Shown here: positions 126-64,000 of the stretch, one piece after another
Layout of the letters: every line of letters begins with the position of its first letter
Position numbering within the stretch: position 1 is the first letter of the stretch
DNA from: Botryllus schlosseri
Taxonomy: Eukaryota
Reading direction: 5' to 3'
DNA length: 64,000 nucleotides
NCBI GenBank assembly: GCA_051294905.1
Contig: CM119372.1
Location: 28,832,001 to 28,896,000, forward strand
Notes under the pieces: generated by a model
The model's database searches: none
Seen by the model: only the letters and a program-made list of their open reading frames with translations
What the model was told of the DNA's origin: nothing
Position numbers and translations under genes: made by a program

Positions 126-289
126 ATACTTACCTGACGAGGCAGTGAACCATGATCAAAAAGGCGGTTCTGCCCGGGCGAGGCCTAGCCATTGCACTTC
201 GGCTTGGTTGACCTCGGCGATTACCCTAAATGTGGGTAACTCGGTCGTGTAATTCCTGGTAGTGGGGTCTGCGTTCGCGCTAACCCTTT
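126..289 (+). ncRNA. U1: U1 snRNA, Sm-site variant AATTCCTGG
   Basis: 5' ATACTTACCTG, loop I GATCAAAAAG, loop II ATTGCAC, 3' stem-loop IV GGGGTCTGCG-TTCG-CGCTAACCC, ~164 nt. Confidence 0.95.
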
Positions 290-1118
290 CCATCCAACCA
301 ACCATACTAATTAAATAGCTCACAGTGCACGGAAAAGAATTCGTGGCCAGCGGCTCTCGTAACGACACTCACTTACATGCATTCTCGCAAAGCCGTTGAT
401 TATTATAAATATACCAAATACTTGGTTTGTTGATTTATTTTCCCCCTCGGAACGAACGTGGCCATATAACACGTTTTGAGTTGGCCTACACCTCGATTTG
501 TTCTCGTAGACCTGCGATATAGCAATGGCGTCTGACCGTTACATCGGTATAGTGTCTGTTTCTGGTTAAGATTTCACGGTTAGCGGTTAGTAGGCCTTTT
601 CCGTATAGTGCGAGCCTAATTTCTTTTTCACCTAGCTCTCCTGAACTGATCATATACACTTCATGTATTTTGATAAGCACCTGGATTGTGGCGAGAATTG
701 ATGACAGTCTGCAGATCAGAAATTAATCTACAATAGGCTTTCCCTATATGCCTCGCTTTTGTAGCTGTGAAAACTTTGCATTGCTATGTCTCGCTTCTGT
801 AATCCTATACCGGCTCTTTATTGGCAAAGCGAATATCAGAGCACCATGGAGATGACCATAAAACACAAGATAATGATTATCGCTCTTTTAAGCAAGGAAT
901 GGACGGTGGAATTCGCAATTGGACGCCGCAGTCAGTCCAATATCATCGATGACGTCCCAATCATATTTGGCGTTCGCGTCTAGTAGAAACTATTTCATTT
1001 TGCTTCGGCGATTCAAAGCGCACTTGGTGAATGCATTTATGCATATGTGGAGAGCGTGCTCACCACAATATTTATTTTGTTGTATGAAATTGGGTGTCAA
1101 TAAATTTCTGGAAAACTC

Positions 1119-1281
1119 ATACTTACGTGACGAGGCAGTGAACCATGATCAAAAGGCGGTTCTGCCCGGGCGAGGCCTAGCCATTGCACTTCGGCTTGGT
1201 TGACCTCGGCGATTACCCCAAATGTGGGTAACTCGGTCGTGTAAGTTCTGGTAGTGGGGTCTGCGTTCGCGCTAACCCATT
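1119..1281 (+). ncRNA. U1: U1 snRNA variant (C9G 5' arm, 9-nt loop I, Sm AAGTTCTGG)
   Basis: ATACTTACGTG start; rest of U1 architecture retained. Confidence 0.92.
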
Positions 1282-1542
1282 CCATCCAACCATACTAATT
1301 AAATAGCTCACAGTGCATGGAAAAGGATTCGTGGCCAGCGGCTCTCGTAACGACACTCACTTACATGCATTCTCGCAAAGCCGCTGATTATAATAAATAT
1401 ACCAAATACTTGGTTTGTTGATTTATTTTCTGCCTCGGAACGAACGTGGCCATATAACACGTTTTGAGTTGGCCTACACCTCGATTTGTTCTCGTGGACC
1501 TGCGATATAGCAATGGCGTCTGACCTTTACATCGTTATAGTG

Positions 1543-2424
1543 CAGGGGCTGGCAACTTCTCCAGTCGGCGGGCCAGATAGAGGAAAATTAGGTACTTGGC
1601 GGGCCGGATTGCTGAATCGACACATTATTCGCCCATTTATCCACATATACAAGGAATAAATCGTATTTAATAAATGTATTTTAACGACAGCAATGTCGCT
1701 TCAAAGCCATTTCTCCGATAATGGCGAGGACAGTGTGGATTTGAGAATAACATTATCATACAGGCGCCGCCATGTCTGCTTCACTCTGATCAATCAACAC
1801 ACGGTGCAATCCCTAGTTAAGATTTCAAGTCGTTCGATGACCCCGGTAACCCTAATTTAACAAGATATCAATTCATTAGGGTTGAGTAGGTGCCGTGATA
1901 GCGTCGTTGTTCAACTGTGTGGCGTAAATAATCTCGAATATTGAATTCATACGGCCCGCGTTTTCTACAAAATTTGAAAACTGGCCTGCGACCCGTTTTG
2001 AGATGGCGACCCCTGGAATATGCGGTGCCTTACAAAAGCCTAGAAGTGTGGCGTGCTACAAGTCGGCGGTTGCGGAATCGAAAATAAGAAATATATCAGT
2101 CTGGTGTAAATGACCATTGTAGTCGACAAAAATCATGATTACCACAGACGACATTAGGGTTGAGTGCATATCGCAAATGCCGATAATGCAAGTCTTCTCG
2201 CTTCGACGAACTTACGCGTATGCTCCACTCTCGCAACGATGCGCACACACGTATATAATAATATACAGTCACTTAAATTTGACGTAGTATGCAAGTAGTG
2301 GGGGATCTCGACAGACTGGGGCCGCGGGCTACATTATCATGTAAGACGGAAAACCGTCCGCGGGCCGGACAAAATCCCTTCGCGGGCCGGATCCGGCCCG
2401 CGGGCCGTATGTTGCCCACCCCTG
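1543..2424. mobile_element. Non-autonomous hAT (Buster/Charlie-type) MITE, 882-bp form
   Basis: Imperfect TIRs CAGGGGCTGGCAAC / GTTGCCCACCCCTG, subterminal GGCCCGCGGGCC motifs, 8-bp TSD TTATAGTG (1535-1542, 2425-2432) with central TA; empty-site units have a single TTATAGTG. Confidence 0.93.
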
Positions 2425-2996
2425 TTATAGTGTCTGTTTCTGGGTAAGATTTAACGATTAGCGGTTAGTAGGCCTTTTCCGTATAGTGCGAGCCTAATTT
2501 CTTTTTCACCTAGCTCTCCTGAACTGATCATATACACTTCATGTATTTCGATAAGCGCCTGGATTGTGGCGAGAATTGATGACAGTCAGAAGATTAGAAA
2601 TTAATCTACAATAGGCTTTCCCTATATGCCTCGCTTTTGTAGCTGTGAAAACTTTGCATTGCTATGTCACGCTTCTGTAATCCTATACCGGCTCTTTATT
2701 GGCAAAGCGAATATCAGAGCACCATGGAGATGACCATAAACCGCAAGATAATGATTATCGCACTTTTAAGCAAGGAATGGACGGTGGAATTCGCAATTGG
2801 ACGCCGCAGTCAGTCCAATATCATCGATGACGTCCCAATCATATTTGGCGTTCGCGTCTAGTAGAAACTATTTCATTTTGCTTCGGCGATTCAAAGCGCA
2901 CTTGGTGAATGCATTTATGCATATGTGGAGAGCGTGCTCACCACAATATTTACTTTGTTGTATGAAATTGGGTGTCAATAAATTTCTGGAAAACTC

Positions 2997-3159
2997 ATAC
3001 TTACCTGACGAGGCAGTGAACCATGATCAAAAGGCGGTTCTGCCCGGGCGAGGCCTAGCCATTGCACTTCGGCTTGGTTGACCTCGGCGATTACCCCAAA
3101 TGTGGGTAACTCGGTCGTGTAAGTTCTGGTAGTGGGGTCTGCGTTCGCGCTAACCCATT
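2997..3159 (+). ncRNA. U1: U1 snRNA variant (9-nt loop I, Sm AAGTTCTGG)
   Basis: ATACTTACCTG, ATTGCAC, SL IV. Confidence 0.93.
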
Positions 3160-3420
3160 CCATCCAACCATACTAATTAAATAGCTCACAGTGCATGGAA
3201 AAGAATTCGTGGCCAGCGGCTCTCGTAACGACACTCACTTACATGCATTCTCGCAAAGCCGCTGATTATAATAAATATACCAAATACTTGGTTTGTTGAT
3301 TTATTTTCTGCCTCGGAACGAACGTGGCCATATAACACGTTTTGAGTTGGCCTACACCTCGATTTGTTCTCGTGGACCTGCGATATAGCAATGGCGTCTG
3401 ACCTTTACATCGTTATAGTG

Positions 3421-4284
3421 CAGGGGCTGGCAACTTCTCCAGTCGGCGGGCCGGATAAAGGAAAATTAGGTACTTGGTGAGCCGGATTGCTGAATCGACA
3501 CATTATTCGCCCATTTATCCACATATACAAGGAATAAATCGTATTTAATAAATGTATTTTAACGACAGCAATGTCGCTTCAAAGCCATTTCTCCGATAAT
3601 GGCGAGGACAGTGTGGATTTGAGAATAACATTATCATACAGGCGCCGCCATGTCTGCTTCACTCTGATCAATCAACACACGGTGCAATCCCTAGTTAAGA
3701 TTTCAAGTCGTTCGATGACCCCGGTAACCCTAATTTACCAAGATATCAATTCATTAGGGTTGAGTAGGTGCCGTGATAGCGTCGTTGTTCAACTGTGTGG
3801 CGTAAATAATCTCGAATATTGAATTCATACGGCCCGCGTTTTCTACAAAATTTGAAAACTGGCCTGCGACCCGTTTTGAGATGGCGACCCCTGGAATATG
3901 CGGTGCCTTACAAAAGCCTAGAAGTGTGGCGTGCTACAAGTCGGCGGTTGCGGAATCGAAAATAAGAAATATATCAGTCTGGTGTAAATGACCATTGTAG
4001 TCGACAAAAATCATGATTACCACAGACGACATTAGGGTTGAGTGCATATCGCAAATGCCGATAATGCAAGTCTTCTCGCTTCGACGAACTTACGCGTATG
4101 CTCCACTCTCGCAGCGATGCGCACACACGTATATAGTAATATACAGTCACTTAAATTTGACGTAGTATGCAAGTAGTGGGGGATCTCGACAGACTGGGGC
4201 CGCGGGCCACATTATCATGTAAGACGGAAAACCATCCGCGGGCCGGACAAAATCCCTTCGCGGGCCGTATGTTGCCCACCCCTG
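3421..4284. mobile_element. hAT MITE, 864-bp form
   Basis: Same TIRs, TSD and site. Confidence 0.92.
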
Positions 4285-4835
4285 TTATAGTGTCTGTTTC
4301 TGGGTAAGATTTACCGATTAGCGGTTAGTAGGCCTTTTCCGTATAGTGCGAGCCTAATTTCTTTTTCACCTAGCTCTCCTGAACTGATCATATACACTTC
4401 ATGTATTTCGATAAGCGCCTGGATTGTGGCGAGAATTGATGACAGTCAGAAGATTAGAAATTAATCTACAATAGGCTTTCCCTATATGCCTCGCTTTTGT
4501 AGCTGTGAAAACTTTGCATTGCTATGTCACGCTTCTGTAATCCTATACCGGCTCTTTATTGCCAAAGCGAATATCAGAGCACCATGGAGATGACCATAAC
4601 ACGCAAGATAATGATTATCGCACTTTTGAGCAAGGAATGGACGGTGGAGGCGTCCAATATCATCGATGACGTCCCAATCATATTTGGCGTTCGCGTCTAG
4701 TAGAAACTATTTCATTTTGCTTCGGCGATTCAAAGCGCACTTGGTGAATGCATTTATGCATATGTGGTGAGCGTGCTCACCACAATATTTATTTTGTTGT
4801 ATGAAATTGGGTGTCAATAAATTTCTGGAAAACTC

Positions 4836-4999
4836 ATACTTACCTGACGAGGCAGTGAACCATGATCAAAAAGGCGGTTCTGCCCGGGCGAGGCCTAGCC
4901 ATTGCACTTCGGCTTGGTTGACCTCGGCGATTACCCTAAATGTGGGTAACTCGGTCGTGTAATTACTGGTAGTGGGGTCTGCGTTCGCGCTAACCCTTT
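4836..4999 (+). ncRNA. U1: U1 snRNA, Sm-site variant AATTACTGG
   Basis: ATACTTACCTG, ATTGCAC, SL IV. Confidence 0.93.
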
Positions 5000-5828
5000 C
5001 CATCCAACCAACCATACTAATTAAATAGCTCACAGTGCACGGAAAAGAATTCGTGGCCAGCGGCTCTCGTAACGACACTCACTTACATGCATTCTCGCAA
5101 AGCCGTTGATTATTATAAATATACCAAATACTTGGTTTGTTGATTTATTTTCCCCCTCGGAACGAACGTGGCCATATAACACGTTTTGAGTTGGCCTACA
5201 CCTCGATTTGTTCTCGTAGACCTGCGATATAGCAATGGCGTCTGACCGTTACATCGGTATAGTGTCTGTTTCTGGTTAAGATTTCACGGTTAGCGGTTAG
5301 TAGGCCTTTTCCGTATAGTGCGAGCCTAATTTCTTTTTCACCTAGCTCTCCTGAACTGATCATATACACTTCATGTATTTTGATAAGCACCTGGATTGTG
5401 GCGAGAATTGATGACAGTCTGCAGATCAGAAATTAATCTACAATAGGCTTTCCCTATATGCCTCGCTTTTGTAGCTGTGAAAACTTTGCATTGCTATGTC
5501 TCGCTTCTGTAATCCTATACCGGCTCTTTATTGGCAAAGCGAATATCAGAGCACCATGGAGATGACCATAAAACACAAGATAATGATTATCGCTCTTTTA
5601 AGCAAGGAATGGACGGTGGAATTCGCAATTGGACGCCGCAGTCAGTCCAATATCATCGATGACGTCCCAATCATATTTGGCGTTCGCGTCTAGTAGAAAC
5701 TATTTCATTTTGCTTCGGCGATTCAAAGCGCACTTGGTGAATGCATTTATGCATATGTGGAGAGCGTGCTCACCACAATATTTATTTTGTTGTATGAAAT
5801 TGGGTGTCAATAAATTTCTGGAAAACTC

Positions 5829-5991
5829 ATACTTACGTGACGAGGCAGTGAACCATGATCAAAAGGCGGTTCTGCCCGGGCGAGGCCTAGCCATTGCACT
5901 TCGGCTTGGTTGACCTCGGCGATTACCCCAAATGTGGGTAACTCGGTCGTGTAAGTTCTGGTAGTGGGGTCTGCGTTCGCGCTAACCCATT
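5829..5991 (+). ncRNA. U1: U1 snRNA variant (C9G, 9-nt loop I, Sm AAGTTCTGG)
   Basis: ATACTTACGTG start; U1 body. Confidence 0.92.
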
Positions 5992-6252
5992 CCATCCAAC
6001 CATACTAATTAAATAGCTCACAGTGCATGGAAAAGGATTCGTGGCCAGCGGCTCTCGTAACGACACTCACTTACATGCATTCTCGCAAAGCCGCTGATTA
6101 TAATAAATATACCAAATACTTGGTTTGTTGATTTATTTTCTGCCTCGGAACGAACGTGGCCATATAACACGTTTTGAGTTGGCCTACACCTCGATTTGTT
6201 CTCGTGGACCTGCGATATAGCAATGGCGTCTGACCTTTACATCGTTATAGTG

Positions 6253-14276: not shown

Positions 14277-14440
14277 ATACTTACCTGACGAGGCAGTGAA
14301 CCATGATCAAAAAGGCGGTTCTGCCCGGGCGAGGCCTAGCCATTGCACTTCGGCTTGGTTGACTTCGGCGATTACCCCAAATGTGGGTAACTCGGTCGTG
14401 TGATTTCTGGTAGTGGGGTCTGCGTTCGCGCTAACCCTTT
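14277..14440 (+). ncRNA. U1: U1 snRNA (Sm GATTTCTGG)
   Basis: ATACTTACCTG, GATCAAAAAG, ATTGCAC, SL IV. Confidence 0.94.
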
Positions 14441-15265
14441 CCATCCAACCATTCTGATTAAATAGCTCACAGTGCATGAAAAAGAATTCGTGGCCAGCGG
14501 CTCTCGTAACGACACTCACTTACATGCATTTTCGCAAAGCCGCTGATTATTATAAAAATACCAAATACTTGGTTTGTTGATTTATTTTCCCCCTCGGAAC
14601 GAACGTGGCCATATAACACGTTTTGAGTTGGCCTACACCTCGATTTGTTCTCGTAGACCTGCGATATAGCAATGGCGTCTGACCTTTACATCGTTATAGT
14701 GTCTGTTTCTGGGTAAGATTTCACAATTAGCGGTTAGTAGGCCTTTTCCGTATAGTGCGAGCCTAATTTCTTTTTCACCTAGCTCTCCTGAACTGATAAT
14801 ATACACTTCATGTATTTCGATAAGCGCCTGGATTGTAGCGAGAATTGATGACAGTCGGCAGATCAGAAATTAATCTACAATAGGCTTTCCCTATATGCCT
14901 CGCTTTTGTAGCTGTGAAAACTTTGCATTGCTATGTCACGCTTCTGTAATCCTATACCGGCTCTTTATTGGCAAAGCGAATATCAGAGCACCATGGAGAT
15001 GACCATAAACCGCAAGATAATAATTATCGCACTTTTAAGCAAGGAATGGACGGTGGAATTCGCAATTGGACGCCGCAGTCAGTCCAATATCATCGATGAC
15101 GTCCCAATCATATTTGGCGTTCGCGTCTAGTAGAAACTATTTCATTTTGCTTCGGCGATTCAAAGCGCACTTGGTGAATGCATTTATGCATATGTGGAGA
15201 GCGTGCTCACCACAATATTTATTTTGTTGTATGAAATTGGGTGTCAATAAATTTCTGGAAAACTC

Positions 15266-15429
15266 ATACTTACCTGACGAGGCAGTGAACCATGATCAAA
15301 AAGGCGGTTCTGCCCGGGCGAGGCCTAGCCATTGCACTTCGGCTTGGTTGACCTCGGCGATTACCCCAAATGTGGGTAACTCGGTCGTGTAATTTCTGGT
15401 AGTGGGGTCTGCGTTCGCGCTAACCCTTT
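15266..15429 (+). ncRNA. U1: U1 snRNA, array-consensus type (Sm AATTTCTGG)
   Basis: All U1 motifs intact. Confidence 0.97.
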
Positions 15430-35009: not shown

Positions 35010-35173
35010 ATACTTACCTGACGAGGCAGTGAACCATGATCAAAAAGGCGGTTCTGCCCGGGCGAGGCCTAGCCATTGCACTTCGGCTTGGTTGACCTCG
35101 GCGATTACCCCAAATGTGGGTAACTCGGTCGTGTTATTTCTGGTAGTGGGGTCTGCGTTCGCGCTAACCCTTT
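35010..35173 (+). ncRNA. U1: U1 snRNA (Sm TATTTCTGG)
   Basis: ATACTTACCTG, GATCAAAAAG, ATTGCAC, SL IV. Confidence 0.94.
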
Positions 35174-36869: not shown

Positions 36870-37032
36870 ATACTTACCTGACGAGGCAGTGAACCATGAA
36901 CGAAAGGCGGATCTGCCCGGGCGAGGCCTAGCCATTGCACTTCGGCTTGGTTGACCTCGGCGATTACCCCAAATGTGGGTAACTCGGTCGTGTAATTTCT
37001 GGTAGTGGGGTCTGCGTTCGCGCTAACCCTTT
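36870..37032 (+). ncRNA. U1: U1 snRNA variant (loop I GAACGAAAG, stem I GGATCT)
   Basis: ATACTTACCTG, ATTGCAC, Sm AATTTCTGG, SL IV. Confidence 0.93.
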
Positions 37033-50274: not shown

Positions 50275-51048
50275 CCATCCAACCATACTAATTAAATAGC
50301 TCACAGTGCATGGAAAAGAATTCGTGGCCAGCGGCTCTCGTAACGACACTCACTTACATGCATTCTCGCAAAGCCGCTGATTATTATAAATATATCAAAT
50401 ACTTGGTTTGTTGATTTATTTTCCCCCTTTGGAACGAACGTGGCCACTGGCCATATAACACGTTTTGAGTTGGCCTACACCTCGATTTGTGTTCGTAGAC
50501 CTGCGATATAGCAATGGCGTCTGACCTTTACATCGTTATAGTGTCTGTTTCTGGGTAAGATTTCACGATTAGCGGTTAGTAGGCCTTTTCCGTAGCTCTC
50601 CTGAACTGATCCTACACACTTCATGTATTTTGGTAAGCACCTGAATTGCGCCGAGAATTGCTGACAGTCAGTTATGAAAGTAATCTAGACGTAGGTTTGC
50701 ATTTAAAACAAACTTCTTTAAAACCAGGCCCTTGTTTAAAACATGTTTTTTACTGTTTTTTTAATCCGTCACGGCTAAAATATTCAATTCTGATGTCATA
50801 GTGGATTCACATTGACATTTGAAAACATTGGGTATATATAGCTCGTGTGACGAAATATCTACGTACTATAGCTGTTGAACCGACTATTTTGTGGGTTCCA
50901 ACCATCCCATATCTTGTACGTCGGCAATGTCGGGTGGGATTTGTCTGTAGGCTCATACAACGTGTTTTTTAGAAATTATTTACAGAATTATGGCATAATT
51001 TAGCAACTCATTAAAAAAACGATTTTTTTTAAAGGCGTTTGTTTAAAA

Positions 51049-52036
51049 CACTGTTTATCTCAATCCAACACGCGGCCCGCGAGGTCATATTTTGCGGCCC
51101 GGAACTTGATTTGAGATTTCGGAAGAAAGCTGAAAAACCATATTGAAATGCTGAAATATACTAATTTCATCATATTGTTGTTGTTCTTTAAAATTAAGCT
51201 ATTTTTTTGCCCAACATCACTGTTCGTCACTAGCTAAAACGGTTTTGGCGATGGCAACAGCATTCCATCGAGTAAGAATCAGCCGATATGAATGGCTATA
51301 TATAGCCTGGACGTGCAATGGCCCAAACACTGCCAAGTCCGAGACGCTTAGGAAACGGCTTATAGGGCAGTGTTTCTCAAACTGGGGATTGAGAGCATAT
51401 GAAGGGGACGCGAAGCTGCTGTCTACTGAAGTTTTTTTCGCGCATTGCGCGATATCCCTCAGATTCATGAATTTTGCTCTGTGTCTAGTCCGGAATTCAT
51501 ATTATGTATAATTCTCTCATCTACAGTCATAACCTTACATGCCATCAAACTATATCCATTGGGATCACTAGCATTCGGGTTGTATTTTGTGATATGACGA
51601 TAAGGGGGGCGCGAAATTCAGTGTCATAACGGGGAGCGTGCCTAAAAGAGTTTGGGAATTTCTGACTTAAGGCTTCCTCACAAGATCAAGCTTTATACGT
51701 GGAGATGGTCTTTCAGTAGGTAACGTGTCTAGCTAGCCCCAATATCGATTCCTTAGTTTCTGAAAAGCTTTTCCAGGTATTGTGTGGAGCACAGAGTTGA
51801 AATTAAATGAAATTGATAATAATGATTTTCTGTGGTATTTGTATCTCTTTAATAAAATATTACTTCTTTTGTGTTATCACTATGCCAATCGCTTGTGTTA
51901 GGTAGCACAGCGTTGTACTGACGTAGAGTTTTAAAACGTGGTTACCTATTTTATATTGACGTTGAATTCATGCGGCCCGCGGCTGCTACGACATTTGAAA
52001 AATGGCCCACGACCACTTTTGAGTTGGCGACCCCTA
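51049..52036. mobile_element. Degenerate hAT Charlie/Buster-type element nested in 50692-52096
   Basis: Left subterminal TCCAACACGCGGCCCGCG..TTTTGCGGCCC, right end GAGTTGGCGACCCCTA, flanked by GTTTAAAA on both sides; left TIR decayed. Confidence 0.6.
51368..51664. mobile_element. Small Charlie-type MITE (~300 bp), third nesting level
   Basis: Left end CAGTGTTTCTCAAACTGGGG, imperfect right end AGTTTGGGAATTTCTG; no clean TSD. Confidence 0.55.
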
Positions 52037-52323
52037 GTTTAAAACATGTTTTGAGCAAAGTCTTTTAAACAGCTATTTTTTTTAAATGCAACCCTATCTA
52101 CAACTTGTCGTAGGCTATAGCCTTAGGCCTTCTCTATATATGCTCGTTGCTCGTGCATGCAAAAGGAGACGGGCAAGAACACGAACCACAAGCAGAAGAA
52201 ATTATGGGCAACATACAGAAAGACACAAGCAAGAATCACCTACAAACTCAGCGCAGGTGGAATAAGCAAAAACTAAAGAAGGATAGAACTACAACAGCGA
52301 TGTGACACAGGGAAACCGAAAAT

Positions 52324-52352
52324 GTTGGGTCTGCGTTCGCGCTAACCCCTTT
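52324..52352 (+). pseudogene. U1: U1 snRNA 3' fragment (stem-loop IV only), followed by diverged U1 3' flank to ~52430
   Basis: GTTGGGTCTGCGTTCGCGCTAACCCCTTT then CACAGTACATGAAAAAGAATT..TGGCCAG..CGTAAC, matching the array's downstream flank; no 5' arm or Sm site. Confidence 0.85.
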
Positions 52353-52551
52353 CATCCATGTATACTTATTATCAAATCAGCCACAGTACATGAAAAAGAA
52401 TTATTGGCCAGTGCAGCTGTCGTAACTGTACTATAACCTAGGCCAGGGGCGGGCAACTTCTACGGTCGGCGGGCCTGATTGGGGAAAATGAAGTACTTGG
52501 CGAGCCAGAATACAAAATCGATACAATAATCGCGTAATTATCCACCTATAC

Positions 52552-54083
52552 CAGGGGCGGGCAACTTCTCCAGTCGGCGGGCCGGATATAGGAAAATTGA
52601 GTACTTGGCGGGCCGGATCGCTGAATCGATACATTATTCGCCCATTTATCCAAATATACAAGGAATAAATCGTATATAATGAATGTATTTTAACGACAAC
52701 CATGTAACTTCAAAGCGATTTCTCGCCAATAATGACGAAGACAATGTGGATTTGAGAACAGCATTGTCATACAGGCACCACCATGTCTGCTTATCTCTGA
52801 CCAATCAACACACGGTGCAATCCTTAATTAGGATTTCAAGGCGTTCGATAAGCCCAGTACCCCAAATTTACCGAGACATCAATTCATTAGGGTTTAGTAC
52901 AGTGGTTCTCAACCTTTTTGTCTTTGCGGACTCGTTCTGGACCGCCACGGACCCCCGCAAGTTTTCGTTCAAAATTAGATCAATTATCGCGCAACCGTTA
53001 TCTGTCTCCTGTCTTGTGTCTATAGTGATAAACATCCACACAATGACTTTTCTTGAAAATAACATCATACTATATGTAGAAATTGGGTAGACTTTTATTT
53101 TCAGCTGTATTCATTGTCTTGAAAATCCGCGTTTTCGATTAGATATGAGCAAGCGCCGAAAATCCATTTTCGCAAATATATATTGGTGGCGAATATAATA
53201 TTAACGCGTAACGCTTCCGACGACAGCTTTTGGTATGAGTTTTTGCTGTACATATCACGTCCAGTCTGGTCATTTCTATCTTGCATCTCATATTGAAGTT
53301 ATTTAGTGGTTATATCTCAGGACACAATGGATTTCGTGATGAGGTTCCAATTCCTTCATTGGGACAGATTGGGAAAAAATTTCAGGATTTTCTATTTCAA
53401 ACGACTGTTTACTAATATGCTGAGACTGGCAACTCCACTAATTTGCTGAGACTGATAACTCCAAATCCAAAATGCCATCTCCAACATTTTATTTTTCCAC
53501 AAACCCCACCAAAACATCTCTAAACAGCAATATGTTTGCGTCGGCAGGCTATTGGTAATTTGAGAATAAAATGAGTAATCACTGCCGGATATTTGATCTC
53601 GGACGAACATTTTAAGGATGTGGGTCCTAAAGTTTGAGCAATTTTGAAACGAAACTGTCTCATGCTTTTCCTATTTAAAAATAAGAATCAGGTTTGCAAT
53701 CACTTTACAAATTTAGAGGTTTCGCGGACCCCGGAGGTCCGCGAACCCCCGGTTGAGAACCACTGGTCTAGTAGGTGACGGAATCCAAAATAAGAAATAT
53801 CGGCCTGGTGTAAATGACCATTATAGTTGACAAACACCATGATTACCACAAATGACATTAGGGTTGAGTACATCGTAAATGCCGATAATGCAAGTCTTCC
53901 CGCTTCGACGAACTTACGCGTAAGCTCCACCTTCGCTCGCTGCGCATACATGTGCATAGTAACACACAGTCACTAAAATTTGATGTAGTAAGCAAGTAGT
54001 GGGGAATGTCAGAAGACTGGGGCCGCGGGCCATTATCATGTAAGACGGAAAACTGTCCGCGGGCCGTATGTTGCCCGCCCCTG
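52552..54083. mobile_element. Diverged relative of the array MITE inserted into the outer element
   Basis: Perfect TIR CAGGGGCGGGCAAC / GTTGCCCGCCCCTG, perfect 8-bp TSD ACCTATAC (52544-52551, 54084-54091); internal sequence alignable to the array MITE. Confidence 0.92.
52900..53765. mobile_element. Charlie-type hAT MITE (866 bp) nested in 52552-54083
   Basis: Perfect 15-bp TIR CAGTGGTTCTCAACC / GGTTGAGAACCACTG; TSD GTTTAGTA / GTCTAGTA (7/8). Confidence 0.9.
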
Positions 54084-54189
54084 ACCTATACAATGAATAA
54101 ATCGTGTTGAAGCATAGGGGCCATAAACAGTATTTATTGAATTTTTCTAACCTAAATGTGCTCCAATAGTTGTTGAAGTCAATCAGACG

Positions 54190-54660
54190 TCTTTGGTCGA
54201 TCAAAGTTGTCATACAGTTTCTTGAACTTTGCTGAATGCCAGATGCAGAAACCATTAGTAAATACTGCACGCGAGCATCAGTTATATTGGAACGTAGCCT
54301 TGTCTTATTGATGATCATGGTCAAAAATGTTTGATCGCAAACAATGTTCCCCCCAAGCTGCGCAGTGCTGACACGGTCTCTCTGCGCACAGAAAATCTAG
54401 GCCGCGCAAAAAAAAAACCGAAATGATGACCTCATTTTATCGTTACGCAGTGTTGTCCAAGGGACCGCGCAGTGAGTTGGTGAGTGCGCGCGGACTCGTC
54501 AAAAACTAGAGGGAACATTGCTCGCAAATGTATGTAGACCAGAACAGATAGTTTCATGACCATCTTTCTCATGTTGGAAAACTTGATTCATTCTGTAACG
54601 CACAAAATTTGTCTTACTTCTCACCTATCCCTGACTTTCAGATTAGAATTGAATATTATC
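54190..54660 (-). pseudogene. Decayed hAT (Buster/Charlie) transposase C-terminal dimerization region
   Basis: After removing the 179-bp MITE and one TSD, the minus strand reads ..FSNMRKMVMKLSVL/(frameshift)STYICEQTFLTMIINKTRLRSNITDARVQYLLMVSAS.., resembling the STYxCExxFSxMxxxKxxxRSxLTD motif. Confidence 0.82.
54342..54520. mobile_element. 179-bp hAT-type MITE interrupting the transposase remnant
   Basis: TIR CAATGTTCCC / GGGAACATTG; TSD ATCGCAAA / CTCGCAAA (7/8). Confidence 0.88.
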
Positions 54661-56320
54661 TGTATTTAAAATAGCATAACTGGCAATGCGTATAGAGAGC
54701 AAGATTTTCTGATCCTTGCTGCACTGGCATTTGAACAATGATTTTACCTAAACTCTCACACAGACCAGTCCCCCGCATACCAGCAAGGCTTCAATATTGT
54801 GCAGACGTATTTAATTAAATTTCAAGCCACGCCCACAATTGTGCAAGGTTAAGAAGTATCAATGAAGACTGGAGAGCCTCAAGATCCATGGTACAAAACA
54901 GTAAGGCCTAGTTGCAACGCAGAGAATTCTTTGGCAGAAAAATATCACATCTTCACACACGAGTTTCACAATGTTACATATGTTGAGGCAATGACTACCC
55001 TTCTACTTTCAAATCATAGTCGAGTTCAATCTCGTTGTACGGATACGCGAACAGAATGCGATTGGAGGCTATGGAAGCAATCAAGCCGACTTTCATTGTG
55101 ACGATGCGACAAATACAAACGGCAAAACACTATGCACGAACACATTAATAAACAACAAACGCGAATCTATATGATTTCAGAAGAGGACAATTGAGATTTT
55201 GTATAAATAACAAGATGAAGAAAAATTTAGTAGATCACGACAGAGCATCCGGAATCGTACTCTCAACCACGACGACAAAAAAAAAAAAAAAAGTTGAAGC
55301 GACAAGTCAGCATGCCGCGTTAATTTGCGTCGTGCAGCGGTGAGCTGAAATAAAACGGCTTATATTCCCCATTTCCCGCCGTGGTTCGTTCTGATTTCTC
55401 CAGCAGTGTACGGGGGATGATGTCGCGATGGTTTTCTTTGTTTGTTGGGCTGAAGTAATCTGGCTTTGTTGACAACTTCGACTCGTCACAGAGATTCACG
55501 ACTGTTTTAACGTCGAACGTAGTGTTCGCTTCGTCTGAAAACACGGAAATGAAATCGGTTTGAAACACAATATCCCGTGATCGTGATCGCAGTTACTGAC
55601 GAAGAAATAAATATACCAAATACTTGGTTTGTTGATTTATTTTCCCCCTCGGAACGAACGTGGCCATATAACACGTTTTGAGTTGGCCTACACCTCGATT
55701 TGTTCTCGTGGACCTGCGATATAGCAATGGCGTCTGACCTTTACATCGTTATAGTGTCTGTTTCTGGGTAAGATTTCACGATTAGCGGTTAGTAGGCCTT
55801 TTCCGTATAGTGCGAGCCTAATTTCTTTTTCACCTAGCTCTCCTGAACTGATCATATACACTTCATGTATTTCGATAAGCGCCTGGATTGTGGCGAGAAT
55901 TGATGACAGTCGGCAGATCAGAAATTAATCTACAATAGGCTTTCCCTATATTCCTCGCTTTTGTAGCTGTGAAAACTTTGCATTGCTATGTCACGCTTCT
56001 GTAATCCTATACCGGCTCTTTATTGGCAAAGCGAATATCAGAGCACCATGGAGATGACCATAAACCGCAAGATAATGATTATCGCACTTTTAAGCAAGGA
56101 ATGGACGGTGGAATTCGCAATTGGACGCCGCAGTCAGTCCAATATCATCGATGACGTCCCAATCATATTTGGCGTTCGCGTCTAGTAGAAACTATTTCAT
56201 TTTGCTTCGGCTATTCAAAGCGCACTTGGTGAATGCATTTATGCATATGTGGAGAGCGTGCTCACCACAATATTTATTTTGTTGTATGAAATTGGGTGTC
56301 AATAAATTTCTGGAAAACTC

Positions 56321-57608: not shown

Positions 57609-58180
57609 TTATAGTGTCTGTTTCTGGGTAAGATTTAACGATTAGCGGTTAGTAGGCCTTTTCCGTATAGTGCGAGCCTAATTTCTTTTTCACCTAGCTC
57701 TCCTGAACTGATCATATACACTTCATGTATTTCGATAAGCGCCTGGATTGTGGCGAGAATTGATGACAGTCGGCAGATCAGAAATTAATCTACAATAGGC
57801 TTTCCCTATATGCCTCGCTTTTGTAGCTGTGAAAACTTTGCATTGCTATGTCACGCTTCTGTAATCCTATACCGGCTCTTTATTGGCAAAGCGAATATCA
57901 GAGCACCATGGAGATGACCATAAACCGCAAGATAATGATTATCGCACTTTTAAGCAAGGAATGGACGGTGGAATTCGCAATTGGACGCCGCAGTCAGTCC
58001 AATATCATCGATGACGTCCCAATCATATTTGGCGTTCGCGTCTAGTAGAAACTATTTCATTTTGCTTCGGCGATTCAAAGCGCACTTGGTGAATGCATTT
58101 ATGCATATGTGGAGAGCGTGCTCACCACAATATTTATTTTTTTGTATGAAATTGGGTGTCAATAAATTTCTGGAAAACTC

Positions 58181-58343
58181 ATACTTACCTGACGAGGCAG
58201 TGAACCATGAACGAAAGGCGGATCTGCCCGGGCGAGGCCTAGCCATTGCACTTCGGCTTGGTTGACCTCGGCGATTACCCCAAATGTGGGTAACTCGGTC
58301 GTGTAATTTCTGGTAGTGGGGTCTGCGTTCGCGCTAACCCTTT
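58181..58343 (+). ncRNA. U1: U1 snRNA variant (loop I GAACGAAAG)
   Basis: ATACTTACCTG, ATTGCAC, Sm AATTTCTGG. Confidence 0.93.
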
Positions 58344-58608
58344 CCATCCAACCAACCATACTAATTAAATAGCTCACAGTGCACGGAAAAGAATTCGTGG
58401 CCACCGGCTCTCGTAACGAGACTCACTTACATGCATTCTCGCAAAGCCGCTGATTATTATAAATAAACCAAATACTTGGTTTGTTGATTTATTTTCCCCC
58501 TCGGAACGAACGTGGCCATATAACACGTTTTGAGTTGGCCTACACCTCGATTTGTTCTCGTGGACCTGCGATATAGCAATGGCGTCTGACCTTTACATCG
58601 TTATAGTG

Positions 58609-59490
58609 CAGGGGCTGGCAGCTTCTCCAGTCGGCGGGCCGGATAGAGGAAAATTAGGTACTTGGCGGGCCGGATTGCTGAATCGACACATTATTCGCCC
58701 ATTTATCCACATATACAAGGAATAAATCGTATTTAATAAATGTATTTTAACGACAGCAATGTCGCTTCAAAGCCATTTCTCCGATAATGGCGAGGACAGT
58801 GTGGATTTGAGAATAACATTATCATACAGGCGCCGCCATGTCTGCTTCACTCTGATCAATCAACACACGGTGCAATCCCTAGTTAAGATTTCAAGTTGTT
58901 CGATGACCCCGGTAACCCTAATTTACCAAGATATCAATTCATTAGGGTTGAGTAGGTGCCGTGATAGCGTCGTTGTTCAACGGTGTGGCGTAAATAATCT
59001 CGAATATTTAATTCATACGGCCCGCGTTTTCTACAAAATTTGAAAACTGGCCTGTGACCCGTTTTGAGATGGCGACCCCTGGAATATGCGGTGCCTTACA
59101 AAAGCCTAGAAGTGTGGCGTGCTACAAGTCGGCGGTTGCAGAATCGAAAATAAGAAATATATCAGTCTGGTGTAAATGACCATTGTAGTCGACAAAAATC
59201 ATGATTCCCACAGACGACATTAGGGTTGAGTGCATATCGCAAATGCCGATAATGCAAGTCTTCTCGCTTCGACGAACTTACGCGTATGCTCCACTCTCGC
59301 AACGATGCGCACACACGTATATAATAATATACAGTCACTTAAATTTGACGTAGTATGCAAGTAGTGGGGGATCTCGACAGACTGGGGTCGCGGGCCACAT
59401 TATCATGTAAGACGGAAAACCGTCCGCGGGCCGGACAAAATCCCTTCGCGGGCCGGATCCGGCCCGCGGGCCGTGTGTTGCCCACCCCTG
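58609..59490. mobile_element. hAT MITE, 882-bp recombinant form
   Basis: Same TIRs, TSD and site; left part like copy 37298, right end like copy 43817. Confidence 0.92.
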
Positions 59491-60062
59491 TTATAGTGTC
59501 TGTTTCTGGGTAAGATTTAACGATTAGCGGTTAGTAGGCCTTTTCCGTATAGTGCGAGCCTAATTTCTTTTTCACCTAGCTCTCCTGAACTGATCATATA
59601 CACTTCATGTATTTCGATAAGCGCCTGGATTGTGGCGAGAATTGATGACAGTCGGCAGATCAGAAATTAATCTACAATAGGCTTTCCCTATATTCCTCGC
59701 TTTTGTAGCTGTGAAAACTTTGCATTGCTATGTCACGCTTCTGTAATCCTATACCGGCTCTTTATTGGCAAAGCGAATATCACAGCACCATGGAGATGAC
59801 CATAAACCGCAAGATAATGATTATCACACTTTTAAGCAAGGAATGGACGGTGGAATTCGCAATTGGACGCCGCAGTCAGTCCAATATCATCGATGACGTC
59901 CCAATCATATTTGGCGTTCGCGTCTAGTAGAAACTATTTCATTTTGCTTCGGCTATTCAAAGCGCACTTGGTGAATGCATTTATGCATATGTGGAGAGCG
60001 TGCTCACCACAATATTTATTTTGTTGTATGAAATTGGGTGTCAATAAATTTCTGGAAAACTC

Positions 60063-60226
60063 ATACTTACCTGACGAGGCAGTGAACCATGATCAAAAAG
60101 GCGGTTCTGCCCGGGCGAGGCCTAGCCATTGCACTTCGGCTTGGTTGACCTCGGCGATTACCCCAAATGTGGGTAACTCGGTCGTGTTATTTCTGGTAGT
60201 GGGGTCTGCGTTCGCGCTAACCCTTT
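60063..60226 (+). ncRNA. U1: U1 snRNA (Sm TATTTCTGG)
   Basis: ATACTTACCTG, ATTGCAC, SL IV. Confidence 0.94.
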
Positions 60227-61055
60227 CCATCCAACCAACCATACTAATTAAATAGCTCGCAGTGCACGGAAAAGAATTAGCGGCCGGCGGCTCTCGTAAC
60301 GACCCTCACTTACATGCATTCTCGCAAAGCCGCTGATTATAATAAATATACCAAATACTTGGTTTGTTGATTTATTTTCCCCCTCGGAACGAACGTGGCC
60401 ATATAACACGTTTTGAGTTGGCCTACACCTCGATTTGTTCTCGTGGACCTGCGATATAGCAATGGCGTCTGACCTTTACATCGTTATAGTGTCTGTTTCT
60501 GGGTAAGATTTCACGATTAGCGGTTAGTAGGCCTTTTCCGTATAGTGCGAGCCTAATTTCTTTTTCACCTAGCTCTCCTGAACTGATCATATACACTTCA
60601 TGTATTTCGATAAGCGCCTGGATTGTGGCGAGAATTGATGACAGTCGGCAGATCAGAAATTAATCTACAATAGGCTTTCCCTATATTCCTCGCTTTTGTA
60701 GCTGTGAAAACTTTGCATTGCTATGTCACGCTTCTGTAATCCTATACCGGCTCTTTATTGGCAAAGCGAATATCACAGCACCATGGAGATGACCATAAAC
60801 CGCAAGATAATGATTATCACACTTTTAGGCAAGGAATGGACGGTGGAATTCGCAATTGGACGCCGCAGTCAGTCCAATATCATCGATGACGTCCCAATCA
60901 TATTTGGCGTTCGCGTCTAGTAGAAACTATTTCATTTTGCTTCGGCTATTCAAAGCGCACTTGGTGAATGCATTTATGCATATGTGGAGAGCGTGCTCAC
61001 CACAATATTTATTTTTTTGTATGAAATTGGGTGTCAATAAATTTCTGGAAAACTC

Positions 61056-61218
61056 ATACTTACCTGACGAGGCAGTGAACCATGAACGAAAGGCGGATCT
61101 GTCCGGGCGAGGACTAGCCATTGCACTTCGGCTTGGTTGACCTCGGCGATTACCCCAAATGTGGGTAACTCGGTCGTGTAATTTCTGGTAGTGGGGTCTG
61201 CGTTCGCGCTAACCCTTT
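61056..61218 (+). ncRNA. U1: U1 snRNA variant (loop I GAACGAAAG plus stem I/II substitutions)
   Basis: Same variants as copy at 46264. Confidence 0.92.
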
Positions 61219-62026
61219 CCATCCAACCAACCATACTAATTAAATAGCTCACAGTGCACGGAAAAGAATTCGTGGCCGGCGGCTCTCGTAACGACCCTCA
61301 CTTACATGCATTCTCGCAAAGCCGCTGATTATAATAAATATACCAAATACTTGGTTTGTTGATTTATTTTCCCCCTCGGAACGAACGTGGCCATATAACA
61401 CGTTTTGAGTTGGCCTACACCTCAATTTGTTCTCGTGGACCTGCGATATAGCAATGGCGTCTGACCTTTACATCGTTATAGTGTCTGTTTCTGGGTAAGA
61501 TTTCACGATTAGCGGTTAGTAGGCCTTTTCCGTATAGTGCGAGCCTAATTTCTTTTTCACCTAGCTCTCCTGAACTGATCATATACACTTCATGTATTTC
61601 GATAAGCGCCTGGATTGTGGCGAGAATTGATGACAGTCGGCAGATCAGAAATTAATCTACAATAGGCTTTCCTTATATGCCTCGCTTTTGTAGCTGTGAA
61701 AACTTTGCATTGCTATGTCACGCTTCTGTAATCCTATACCGGCTCTTTATTGCCAAAGCGAATATCAGAGCACCATGGAGATGACCATAACACGCAAGAT
61801 AATGATTATCGCGCTTTTGAGCAAGGAATGGACGGTGGAGGCGTCCAATATCATCGATGACGTCCCAATCATATTTGGCGTTCGCGTCTAGTAGAAACTA
61901 TTTCATTTTGTTTCGGCGATTCAAAGCGCACTTGGTGAATGCATTTATGCATATGTGGAGAGCGTGCTCACCACAATATTTATTTTGTTGTATGAAATTG
62001 GGTGTCAATAAATTTCTGGAAAACTC

Positions 62027-62190
62027 ATACTTACCTGACGAGGCAGTGAACCATGATCAAAAAGGCGGTTCTGCCCGGGCGAGGCCTAGCCATTGCACTT
62101 CGGCTTGGTTGACCTCGGCGATTACCCCAAATGTGGGTAACTCGGTCGTGTAATTTCTGGTAGTGGGGTCTGCGTTCGCGCTAACCCTTT
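62027..62190 (+). ncRNA. U1: U1 snRNA, array-consensus type
   Basis: All U1 motifs intact. Confidence 0.97.
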
Positions 62191-62455
62191 CCATCCAACC
62201 AACCATACTAATTAAATAGCTCACAGTGCACGGAAAAGAATTCGTGGCCAGCGGCTCTCGTAACGACACTCACTTACATGCATTCTCGCAAAGCCGCTGA
62301 TTATTATAAATAAACCAAATACTTGGTTTGTTGATTTATTTTCCCCCTCGGAACGAACGTGGCCATATAACACGTTTTGAGTTGGCCTACACCTCGATTT
62401 GTTCTCGTGGACCTGCGATATAGCAATGGCGTCTGACCTTTACATCGTTATAGTG

Positions 62456-63337
62456 CAGGGGCTGGCAGCTTCTCCAGTCGGCGGGCCGGATAGAGGAAAA
62501 TTAGGTACTTGGCGGGCCGGATTGCTGAATCGACACATTATTTGCCCATTTATCCACATATACAAGGAATAAATCGTATTTAATAAATGTATTTTAACGA
62601 CAGCAATGTCGCTTCAAAGCCATTTCTCCGATAATGGCGAGGACAGTGTGGATTTGAGAATAACATTGTCATACAGGCGCCGCCATGTCTGCTTCACTCT
62701 GATCAATCAACACACGGTGCAATCCCTAGTTAAGATTTCAAGTCGTTCGATGATCCCGGTAACCCTAATTTACCAAGATATCAATTCATTAGGGTTGAGT
62801 AGATGCCGTGATAGCGTCGTTGTTCAACTGTGTGGCGTAAATAATCTCGAATATTGAATTCATACGGCCCGCGTTTTCTACAAAATTTGAAAACTGGCCT
62901 GTGACCCGTTTTGAGATGGCGACCCCTGGAATATGCGGTGCCTTACAAAAGCCTAGAAGTGTGGCGTGCTACAAGTCGGCGGTTGCAGAATCGAAAATAA
63001 GAAATATATCAGTCTGGTGTAAATGACCATTGTAGTCGACAAAAATCATGATTACCACAGACGACATTAGGGTTGAGTGCATATCGCAAATGCCGATAAT
63101 GCAAGTCTTCTCGCTTCGACGAACTTACGCGTATGCTCCACTCTCGCAACGATGCGCACACACGTATATAATAATATACAGTCACTTAAATTTGACGTAG
63201 TATGCAAGTAGTGGGGGATCTCGACAGACTGGGGTCGCGGGCCACATTATGATGTAAGACGGAAAACCGTCCGCGGGCCGGACAAAATCCCTTCGCGGGC
63301 CGGATCCGGCCCGTGGGCCGTGTGTTGCCCACCCCTG
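62456..63337. mobile_element. hAT MITE, 882-bp form (right TSD TTACAGTG)
   Basis: Same TIRs and site; matches copy 47664. Confidence 0.92.
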
Positions 63338-63909
63338 TTACAGTGTCTGTTTCTGGGTAAGATTTAACGATTAGCGGTTAGTAGGCCTTTTCCGTATAGT
63401 GCGAGCCTAATTTCTTTTTCACCTAGCTCTCCTGAACTGATCATATACACTTCATGTATTTCGATAAGCGCCTGGATTGTGGCGAGAATTGATGACAGTC
63501 GGCAGATCAGAAATTAATCTACAATAGGCTTTCCCTATATTCCTCGCTTTTGTAGCTGTGAAAACTTTGCATTGCTATGTCACGCTTCTGTAATCCTATA
63601 CCGGCTCTTTATTGGCAAAGCGAATATCAGAGCACCATGGAGATGACCATAAACCGCAAGATAATGATTATCGCACTTTTAAGCAAGGAATGGACGGTGG
63701 AATTCGCAATTGGACGCCGCAGTCAGTCCAATATCATCGATGACGTCCCAATCATATTTGGCGTTCGCGTCTAGTAGAAACTATTTCATTTTGCTTCGGC
63801 TATTCAAAGCGCACTTGGTGAATGCATTTATGCATATGTGGAGAGCGTGCTCACCACAATATTTATTTTGTTGTATGAAATTGGGTGTCAATAAATTTCT
63901 GGAAAACTC

Positions 63910-64000
63910 ATACTTACCTGACGAGGCAGTGAACCATGATCAAAAAGGCGGTTCTGCCCGGGCGAGGCCTAGCCATTGCACTTCGGCTTGGTTGACCTCG
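63910..64000 (+). ncRNA. U1: U1 snRNA, truncated by window end
   Basis: ATACTTACCTG, GATCAAAAAG, ATTGCAC. Confidence 0.93.

What the first reader, a model, noticed from the sequence alone, without database searches (positions are those of the whole stretch)
126..64000. Dense U1 snRNA array made mostly of amplified variant classes rather than one homogenized gene
Seen: of 38 complete copies, 11 have a 9-nt loop I with Sm AAGTTCTGG, 6 have loop I GAACGAAAG, 5 Sm TATTTCTGG, 3 Sm GATTTCTGG, 3 Sm AATT(A/C)CTGG and 10 have both the 10-nt loop I and Sm AATTTCTGG. Only 5 copies (15266, 31283, 33127, 47235, 62027) match the array consensus throughout. Loop II ATTGCAC is unchanged in all copies. Known: the 5' arm pairs with 5' splice sites, loop I binds U1-70K, loop II binds U1A and the Sm site assembles the Sm ring; expressed variant U1 genes exist in humans, frogs, mice and flies. 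Inference: this may be a variant-U1 repertoire (developmental or germline isoforms, or U1A-binding decoys), or a birth-and-death pseudogene array under relaxed selection.
Basis: partly seen in the sequence, partly recalled or inferred. Interest (0 to 1): 0.8.

Follow-up and report, generated by a model that had tools for sequence, protein, structure and literature searches.

The report
U1 array hoarding Sm-site mutants
A row of 74 copies of the splicing RNA U1, in what is likely a sea-squirt genome, is made mostly of mutated copies, with changes piling up where the stabilising Sm proteins bind (a bias repeated in a separate U5 row); these are likely surplus copies whose RNA would be destroyed and so drift freely, not a set of specialised variants.

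Summary
The window is part of a 74-copy array on C2. The genome also holds a more uniform 19-copy array (C6) and at least 10 dispersed U1 genes with covarying stems and intact Sm heptads: these look like the real variants.

C2 classes break stems without compensation (15 of 22 stem alleles), and only 5 of 74 copies keep all conserved positions. The gene diverges far less than spacers between arrays, yet varies as much within C2 (OR 7.9).

The Sm site holds about four times the spacer's mutation events (6 vs 1.4, P=0.0035). A U5 array repeats this (3 vs 0.6, P=0.026). Other gene alleles stay rare; the PSE-like element is unchanged in 74 of 74.

Best reading: a redundant, likely transcribed and hypermutable array in which Sm-damaged copies act as recessive nulls and are amplified by unequal crossing-over. 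Selection for inactivation is not excluded. Expression is untested (6 reads, none from C2).

The parts
126..64000 (+). Part of the C2 U1 tandem array: 38 full genes plus one cut copy. The whole array has 74 full copies (G000:C2:28,748,778-28,897,066). Units are about 0.94-1.01 kb or 1.84-1.88 kb.
15266..15429 (+). Consensus-type copy (also 31283, 33127, 47235, 62027). These five are the only copies of 74 intact at all 115 lineage-invariant columns. The consensus has an A27xC40 mismatch at the top of stem I, which is paired in the other 11 lineages.
15202..15216 (+). PSE-like promoter element CGTGCTCACCACAAT about 64 nt upstream of each gene. It is shared in recognisable form with C6 and all 10 dispersed U1 genes, and has no substitution in 74 of 74 C2 units (P about 0.07). 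Its role as a SNAPc site is inferred from position and conservation.
15391..15399 (+). Sm site (nt 126-134, AATTTCTGG). It has 7 alleles (6 events) in the array and is off-canonical in 41 of 74 copies (22 of 38 in the window). The U-tract itself is hit in 22 of 74 (14 of 38).
2997..3159 (+). Largest class: one A lost from loop I plus T128G (first U of the Sm tract). 11 copies: 1119, 2997, 5829, 7707, 10539, 12417, 16259, 19998, 22866, 27584, 29444. Copies 1119, 5829, 10539 and 16259 also have C9G in the 5' splice-site arm.
36870..37032 (+). Class with loop I GAACGAAAG and T43A, Sm intact. 6 copies: 36870, 38729, 40587, 46264, 58181, 61056.
35010..35173 (+). Class A126T. 5 copies: 35010, 45271, 49118, 56321, 60063.
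14277..14440 (+). Class A126G (14277, 18137, 21858). It still fits the recalled purine-A-U(n) Sm consensus, so it is probably tolerated. Copy 21858 has a 15-nt duplication.
4836..4999 (+). Class C102T plus T130A or T130C (126, 4836, 9546).
1543..2424 (.). 882-bp MITE-like spacer insert with 14-bp imperfect terminal inverted repeats and an 8-bp target duplication (TTATAGTG), hAT-like by inference. It accounts for the long units: 23 of the 37 intervals between full copies are long.
   Evidence: read from the sequence; spacings
50275..56320 (+). Copy of the array's own right flank, carried in by a segmental duplication (10.9-kb block at 99.6%). It includes an old relic unit with a U1 3' fragment at 52324-52351 that has the ancestral C162.
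63910..64000 (+). 39th copy, cut by the window end; it is complete in the genome (A114G, A126T).

Best explanation
This is a surplus tandem array of U1 genes, likely still transcribed and likely mutating faster than its spacers, in which duplications have amplified mutant copies; copies damaged at the Sm site are predicted to be degraded before they become snRNPs, so they would act as harmless recessive nulls and drift to high copy number. Shown: the array, the classes, the duplications, gene conservation between arrays, the Sm excess in both U1 and U5, the rarity skew of other gene alleles, and the backup genes elsewhere. Inferred: transcription, a raised mutation rate (2-4 times the spacer would suffice), degradation of Sm mutants, and weak purging of other mutants because they could form stable faulty snRNPs. 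The classes are young damaged lineages, not isoforms.
For: Redundancy: the C6 array (19 copies, 13 intact at invariant columns) and 10 dispersed genes with intact Sm heptads and 9 covarying pairs. Long-term constraint with relaxed short-term constraint: gene/spacer polymorphism 42/137 against C2-C6 divergence 7/181, OR 7.9, P=2e-8. Damage, not redesign: 15 of 22 native-stem alleles break a pair and none is compensated. Amplification: 21-kb and 10.9-kb duplications at 99.6-99.7%; 502 of 8778 allele pairs fail the four-gamete test. Sm excess: 6 events against 1.43 expected, P=0.0035; U5 array 3 against 0.63, P=0.026; combined P=0.005 with U1 corrected for 7 motifs. The two other AATTT motifs in the unit carry 1 allele each. 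Non-Sm gene events: rare ones at 0.129/nt against 0.067 in spacer (P=0.013), common ones at 0.032 against 0.050; rare/common Fisher P=0.03. Literature: active human RNU genes are hypermutable and pseudogenes are not (bioRxiv 2022.08.20.504670, passages). Sm-mutant U1 is degraded (PMC13573567 sections 8-9; PMC7293007 abstract). Sm-region variants of RNU4-2 are recessive, with lowered RNA (PMC13253345, passages).
Against: No C2 transcript was seen: the 6 raw reads laid fit dispersed genes. A 9-nt window with 7 alleles somewhere in the 969-nt unit is expected by chance with P=0.33, and the U1 Sm site was chosen after it was seen. The U5 replicate rests on 3 events, one of them dominant (T89C, 15 copies); its copy-weighted P is only 0.03-0.06. 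The predicted shielding is absent: Sm-hit backgrounds carry no more other gene mutations than intact ones (U1 5/18 against 22/57, P=0.79; U5 P=0.38). Loop I and loop II mutants are also degraded in human cells, yet they show no significant excess. 13 of the 41 off-canonical copies are A126G, which is probably functional. Single Sm changes in human vU1.15 and vU1A5 still bind Sm (PMC10870369, passages). C6 has no Sm allele (0 of 7, uninformative). Hits per copy are under-dispersed, which this model does not predict.
Confidence: 0.52

Rival explanations
1. Selection favours inactivation. The over-expanded array makes too much (or slightly faulty) U1 that competes for SMN/Sm assembly, and haplotypes in which most copies carry one disabling hit, above all at the Sm site, are favoured.
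For: Hits at invariant columns are under-dispersed: variance/mean 0.31 against 0.86-0.88 for matched spacer columns, P=0.002. Of 73 copies, 5 have no hit, 40 have one and 26 have two. Sm hits per copy are 0.59 against 0.11 (P=0.011). Site 126 is the only site in the unit with all three alternative bases. U1 copies (103 full) far outnumber the U2 (2 strong) and U4 (13 full-length) matches returned (lower bounds). U1 competes with U2 for Sm assembly in vitro (PMC12390936, passages). The C2 consensus has a weakened stem I.
Against: Under-dispersion weakens with indels, stricter columns or the window alone (P 0.03-0.07) and vanishes without the Sm columns (P=0.18); it was one of many tests. Promoter loss would silence a copy as well, but no PSE allele exists. 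Sm alleles are not at higher copy number than spacer alleles (P=0.20). Sm-deleted U1 still binds Gemin5. A 4-fold higher mutation rate in the gene would explain the count without selection.
Confidence: 0.18
2. The C2 array is silent and fully neutral, a recently dead pseudogene array, and the Sm excess is chance.
For: Gene alleles per nt (0.256) are not below spacer (0.170). There is no avoidance of invariant columns (P=0.87). The scan-wide P for the Sm window is 0.33. LINEs and other elements have invaded the left part of the array. No C2 read among 6.
Against: The excess recurs at the Sm site of the U5 array as a pre-set test. The rare/common skew is present in the gene. The PSE is unchanged in 74 of 74. 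The younger C6 array also shows gene equal to spacer within the array (0.043 each), so that feature does not mark a dead array.
Confidence: 0.15
3. The classes are a functional variant-U1 repertoire (stage- or germline-specific isoforms, or Sm-less U1A decoys).
For: Promoters are intact. Loop II is unchanged in 73 of 74. The T128G class occurs on several spacer lineages. Expressed, stage-regulated U1 variants exist in many animals (PMC4291461, PMC10870369, passages). Under-dispersion could also reflect diversifying selection.
Against: There is no compensatory change, unlike the dispersed variants. The Sm heptad and the 10-nt loop I are invariant in all 12 lineages compared. Loop II invariance is not significant. 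In runs X1 and X2 the one contig covering nt 128 reads T. X2's C2-type spacer is 35 of 525 letters away from this array, more than the roughly 2% within it (contigs drop rare variants, so absence is not shown).
Confidence: 0.1
4. Assembly artefact: classes are read errors or stacked haplotypes.
For: Two long near-identical duplications could be uncollapsed haplotigs.
Against: Variants recur on distinct spacer backgrounds. 50 of 73 units are distinct, and the main statistics count distinct alleles, not copies. No N occurs in the 363 kb examined.
Confidence: 0.03

Closest known systems
Human RNU1/RNVU1 family (PMC10870369 passages; PMC13573567 sections 8-9; PMC5786027 passages)
   Same: A multigene family with tandem and single genes. 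Many transcribed variants are unstable. PMC13573567 says nearly all U1 variants have changes in the U1A and/or Sm sites and are removed by quality control.
   Different: Here the damaged copies are near-identical units of one young head-to-tail array with intact promoters, so the spacer gives a neutral yardstick. The 2017 review (PMC5786027) says human variants show few Sm changes, the opposite of this array; the two papers disagree.
Developmentally switched U1 isoforms of Xenopus, sea urchin, mouse and fly (PMC4291461 passages; tandem embryonic versus dispersed late layout recalled, primary paper PMC286959 not held)
   Same: The layout: tandem arrays of one U1 type plus a few dispersed genes of other types. 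A U5 array with dispersed U5 genes exists too.
   Different: Stage-specific expression was not tested. Those arrays are recalled as homogeneous, whereas only 5 of 74 C2 copies are intact.
Hypermutable human snRNA genes and recessive Sm-region alleles of RNU4-2 (bioRxiv 2022.08.20.504670; PMC13253345; passages)
   Same: Supplies the two inferred steps: raised mutation in active snRNA genes, and recessive loss of function at the Sm region.
   Different: Those are population data on single genes. Here the signal lies among paralogues of one assembly.
Intragenomic variation in rDNA/5S arrays under mixed concerted and birth-and-death evolution (search listing only)
   Same: New mutations are spread by unequal exchange in a redundant array.
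   Different: A motif-specific excess at a protein-assembly site is not mentioned in the listed abstracts' openings; the papers were not read.

Membership tests
U1 snRNA gene (Rfam RF00003) | Full-length covariance-model match above the gathering score | tested here: met
   38 of 38 at 118-141 bits, cut-off 69.5
U1 snRNA gene (Rfam RF00003) | 5' arm ATACTTACCTG | tested here: met
   34 of 38; C9G in 4
U1 snRNA gene (Rfam RF00003) | 10-nt loop I and intact Sm U-tract together | tested here: inconclusive
   Both canonical in 10 of 38; 9-nt loop in 17; U-tract hit in 14
U1 snRNA gene (Rfam RF00003) | Proximal sequence element upstream | tested here: met
   Conserved element at about -64 in all 12 lineages and unchanged in 74 of 74 C2 units; SNAPc binding is inferred
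U1 snRNA gene (Rfam RF00003) | TMG cap and snRNP assembly | not testable with these tools
   Needs immunoprecipitation
Functional variant-U1 repertoire | Variants are transcribed and accumulate | tested here: inconclusive
   6 reads in 6 raw-read runs, none fitting C2; 4 of the 6 runs gave no read
Functional variant-U1 repertoire | Structure kept by compensatory change | tested here: not met
   15 of 22 stem alleles break pairs, 0 compensated; the 12-lineage set, mostly dispersed genes, shows 9 covarying pairs
Functional variant-U1 repertoire | Sm site retained | tested here: not met
   Most variable 9-nt region of the unit; U-tract hit in 22 of 74
Functional variant-U1 repertoire | Classes shared across individuals | tested here: inconclusive
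   T128G absent from X1 and X2 contigs, but contigs drop rare variants
Embryonic-type tandem U1 array | Head-to-tail repeat with separate dispersed genes | tested here: met
Embryonic-type tandem U1 array | Homogeneous gene sequence (feature recalled) | tested here: not met
   5 of 74 intact in C2; 13 of 19 in C6
Embryonic-type tandem U1 array | Oocyte/embryo-specific expression | not testable with these tools
   No staged total-RNA data could be identified
Silent pseudogene array | Promoter decay | tested here: not met
   0 alleles in the 15-nt element, 2.6 expected, P=0.08
Silent pseudogene array | Gene evolves like spacer in allele number and frequency | tested here: inconclusive
   Overall diversity is equal (pi 0.021), but the Sm excess and rare-allele skew depart from it
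snRNA-specific LINE (Keno-like) in the array's left part | Most copies sit in U1 | tested here: not met
   Of 30 of 37 element ends read, 2 are in U1 loop I and 1 in the U1 spacer

The most novel reading that the evidence does not exclude
Over-expanded snRNA arrays in this animal turn themselves down by selection: copies that lose the Sm site are favoured because surplus U1 (and U5) would otherwise drain the shared SMN/Sm assembly line. The result is arrays in which nearly every copy carries one disabling hit, most often at the first U of the Sm tract in both U1 and U5. This would be dosage compensation written into a gene array.
Probability: 0.18. Interest if true: 0.75.

Novelty: new variant of a known kind. 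Interest (0 to 1): 0.45.

Why it matters
Tandem snRNA arrays and unstable U1 variants are known. This locus adds a within-genome, spacer-calibrated readout of which snRNA mutations are tolerated. Two independent arrays point to the Sm site as the place where damage accumulates, which matches the recessive, degradation-type alleles now seen in human snRNA disease. It makes the question 'are variant snRNAs isoforms or tolerated debris?' testable in one animal that holds both kinds side by side: covarying dispersed genes and a decaying array. If selection drives the Sm loss, it would be a new form of dosage control.

Tried and rejected
Expression. No RNA holder was listed. Raw runs X15, X17, X21 and X22 gave 0 reads, which is no test. 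X8 gave 4 reads from 2 start places and X12 gave 2, out of 6 and 13 in 100 of those runs read. The X8 reads carry C162 and a 3' flank that fits the dispersed C11 gene (L061), then join an exon end on C7, probably a library chimera. The X12 pair is 90-95% alike, as a dispersed type would be. A filter for human-like reads may remove U1 reads, so none of this counts against C2 expression. X1 and X2 contigs cover spacers and behave like DNA; their depths were not used as copy numbers.

LINE escape. The idea that loop I variants escape a U1-targeting LINE was rejected: the main classes keep the ATGA start of the target site, and the element is not U1-specific.

CpG decay as the cause of gene variation was rejected: gene CpG sites have 2 alleles in 24, and 5 of 7 Sm alleles are transversions at A/T.

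Shielding of other mutations by Sm loss was not seen.

The first C6 spacer diversity figure was inflated by mis-aligned edge and insertion units. It was replaced, which dropped 3 of 19 upstream spacers. Four alleles on a non-native pairing of the 5' arm with the Sm flank were removed from the 26 stem alleles.

An ESM Atlas look-up gave no host information.

Literature. Searches for an Sm-site excess in snRNA arrays or for ascidian U1 arrays returned no such report; the library is incomplete. PMC286959 and PMC4834709 are not held. No supplements were read; those of the bioRxiv mutation-rate paper (active versus pseudogene comparison) bear on the hypermutation step.


Full report
OBSERVATION. 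Rfam finds 38 full U1 genes in the window. Alignment gives 20 haplotypes and reproduces every class count and the five consensus copies. Loop II is unchanged in all 38, but only 1.0 allele is expected there at the spacer rate (P=0.35).

SETTING. The window is G000:C2:28,832,001-28,896,000 of a 495.5-Mb assembly. The neighbouring KIF4 kinesin has its highest named identities with tunicates (44-47%, against 37-44% for other named hits), and earlier notes call the host a sea squirt. An ascidian is therefore likely, not shown. In 363 kb around the window the array has 74 full copies and several split ones. Units are about 1.0 kb, or about 1.86 kb when they carry an 882-bp MITE-like insert. Blocks of 21 kb and 10.9 kb are duplicated at 99.6-99.7%, and the 6-kb gap in the window is a copy of the array's right flank.

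OTHER U1 LOCI. A second array on C6 has 19 copies, all with AATTTCTGG and a 10-nt loop I. Ten dispersed full genes lie on C4 (2), C5, C6, C10, C11 (2), C13, C15 and C16 (a lower bound). The nine scanned score 127-146 bits; the C5 gene was not scanned. Three are identical despite unrelated flanks. Across these ten plus one C6 copy and the C2 consensus, 115 of 164 columns are invariant, including the Sm heptad, and loop I is always 10 nt. Nine stem pairs change on both sides. All share a PSE-like element at about -64. These dispersed genes have the marks of selected variants. The C2 consensus alone has a mismatch at pair 27-40 and scores -53.9 kcal/mol on the common fold, against -64.3 for C6.

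SELECTION ON C2. I aligned 560 nt upstream, the gene and 245 nt downstream for all 74 units; one downstream spacer, an insertion junction, was left out. Distinct substitution alleles number 42 in 164 nt of gene and 137 in 805 nt of spacer. Between one C2 and one C6 unit the differences are 7 and 181 (OR 7.9, P=2e-8, uncorrected for multiple hits). So the gene has been held over the long term, while young alleles are barely filtered. 29 of 42 fall on invariant columns (70% expected), 15 of 22 stem alleles break a pair with none compensated, and only 5 of 74 copies are intact at all invariant columns. C6 also shows gene equal to spacer within the array (0.043/nt each), so this is a property of young array variation, not proof of death. 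A weak filter is visible. With linked alleles merged into events, non-Sm gene events are richer in rare ones (0.129 against 0.067/nt, P=0.013) and poorer in common ones (Fisher P=0.03). The PSE has no allele (P=0.07-0.08).

THE Sm SIGNAL. Nt 126-134 carry 7 alleles, or 6 events, against 1.4-1.5 expected (P=0.001-0.0035). None of 89 non-overlapping spacer windows reaches 7, and site 126 is the only tri-allelic site. 41 of 74 copies are off-canonical, 22 of them in the U-tract. Against this, some 9-nt window of the unit reaches 7 by chance with P=0.33, the right-hand third of the array shows no excess, and 13 copies are the likely tolerated A126G. For an independent test I used a U5 array found on C10 (42 full copies). 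Three units with missing or diverged spacers were dropped for the event count. Its commonest gene allele is again the first U of the Sm tract (T89C, 15 of 39). The site has 3 events against 0.63 expected (P=0.026), and no non-Sm gene event reaches 5 copies. Combined with the U1 value multiplied by 7 motifs, P=0.005. The signal is real enough to follow up, but it rests on nine events in one assembly.

MECHANISM. Human data supply two steps. Active snRNA genes mutate 7- to 32-fold faster and pseudogenes do not (bioRxiv 2022.08.20.504670, passages). U1 that cannot take an Sm ring is uridylated and degraded (PMC13573567 sections 8 and 9; PMC7293007 abstract), and Sm-region alleles of RNU4-2 are recessive with lowered RNA (PMC13253345, passages). 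Applied here by inference: a transcribed, redundant array receives many mutations; those that destroy the RNA cost little and spread by unequal exchange, while those that leave a stable faulty RNA stay rarer. A gene rate 2-4 times the spacer's would account for the Sm count with no positive selection. Two results do not fit neatly. Sm-hit backgrounds do not carry more other mutations. Hits per copy are under-dispersed (variance/mean 0.31 against 0.88, P=0.002, but 0.03-0.07 under other settings and 0.18 without Sm). The second keeps alive the bolder reading that inactivation is favoured. It is plausible because U1 competes with U2 for Sm assembly (PMC12390936, passages), and because only 2 strong U2 and 13 full-length U4 matches were returned (lower bounds).

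READS. Six raw RNA runs gave 6 reads in all, and these fit dispersed genes; four runs gave none. This is inconclusive. Contigs of X1 and X2 look like DNA of other individuals and hold the exact C6 flank. The single contig over nt 128 reads T in each. X2's C2-type spacer differs at 35 of 525 letters, more than the roughly 2% diversity within C2, which suggests the classes are younger than that split. Contigs cannot show absence.

MOBILE ELEMENTS. Left of the window, two LINE families (RVT_1 in both, APE endonuclease scored in one) split U1 genes at the same base, with a 13-15-bp duplication of loop I. X2 shows a third junction near nt 37. A 2015 paper listed only Keno, Utopia and Dada as snRNA-targeting (PMC4640811, passages; PMC3706591, passages; PMC4494074, passages).

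OTHER PAPERS SEEN. PMC10870369, PMC4291461, PMC5786027, PMC5006418, PMC13083235 and bioRxiv 2025.08.15.670264 were seen as passages only. No supplements were read. The Sm consensus rule and the Xenopus/sea-urchin array layout are recalled.

VERDICT. The array is a member of the U1 gene family, but its classes fail the tests for a functional variant repertoire. The best-supported reading is a surplus array that accumulates and amplifies recessive, Sm-damaged copies (0.52); selection for inactivation (0.18), neutral decay (0.15) and a repertoire (0.10) remain. New variant of a known kind; interest 0.45.

Noticed in passing
G000:C10:7,357,111-7,395,586 and 7,544,411-7,576,268 (L098-L102, L107-L110): U5 tandem array of 42 full copies, unit about 1008 bp, in two inverted blocks. 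Its consensus Sm site has C before the A, unlike four dispersed U5 genes, and T89C is in about 40% of copies.
   Followed up: yes
G000:C10:7,368,221-7,373,325 (L099-L100) and split copies in L107-L109: 5.1-kb LINE (ORFs of 428 and 1175 aa; RVT_1, zf-RVT) inserted in U5 loop I with a 14-bp target duplication and no poly(A) tail. Five split U5 genes share the 3' junction at nt 38. It may be U5-targeting; its specificity was not tested.
   Followed up: partly
L056:481-644 and 2325-2488, L059-L065, L096: Ten dispersed U1 genes with loop I types such as GATCAAGCAG and GATCACTCAG, altered loop II ends and covarying stems. Three are identical on different chromosomes. These are the likely true variant repertoire.
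   Followed up: partly
G000:C2:28,717,840-28,775,517 (L009-L015): Two LINE families inserted at U1 nt 27. Only C2-type U1 has ATGATC there; C6 and the dispersed genes do not.
   Followed up: partly
G000:C2:28,789,204-28,816,036 (L016-L019): 27-kb block of elements with a 6.35-kb inverted duplication, entering just behind a U1 gene.
   Followed up: partly
window 36870-37032: T31A and T43A swap GATC/GTTC to GAAC/GATC, as a template switch in a quasi-palindrome would; this may be one mutational event.
   Followed up: no
L022:1415-4522 (minus strand): Uninterrupted 1036-codon KIF4-like kinesin frame 9 kb right of the array, possibly a retrogene.
   Followed up: partly
G000:C1:6,173,439 and 6,181,142; C14:22.18-25.70 Mb: Only two strong U2 matches, plus four longer, weaker U2-like copies on C14.
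   Followed up: no
G000:C4:8.30-8.75 Mb: Cluster of ten spaced U4-like copies of declining score.
   Followed up: no
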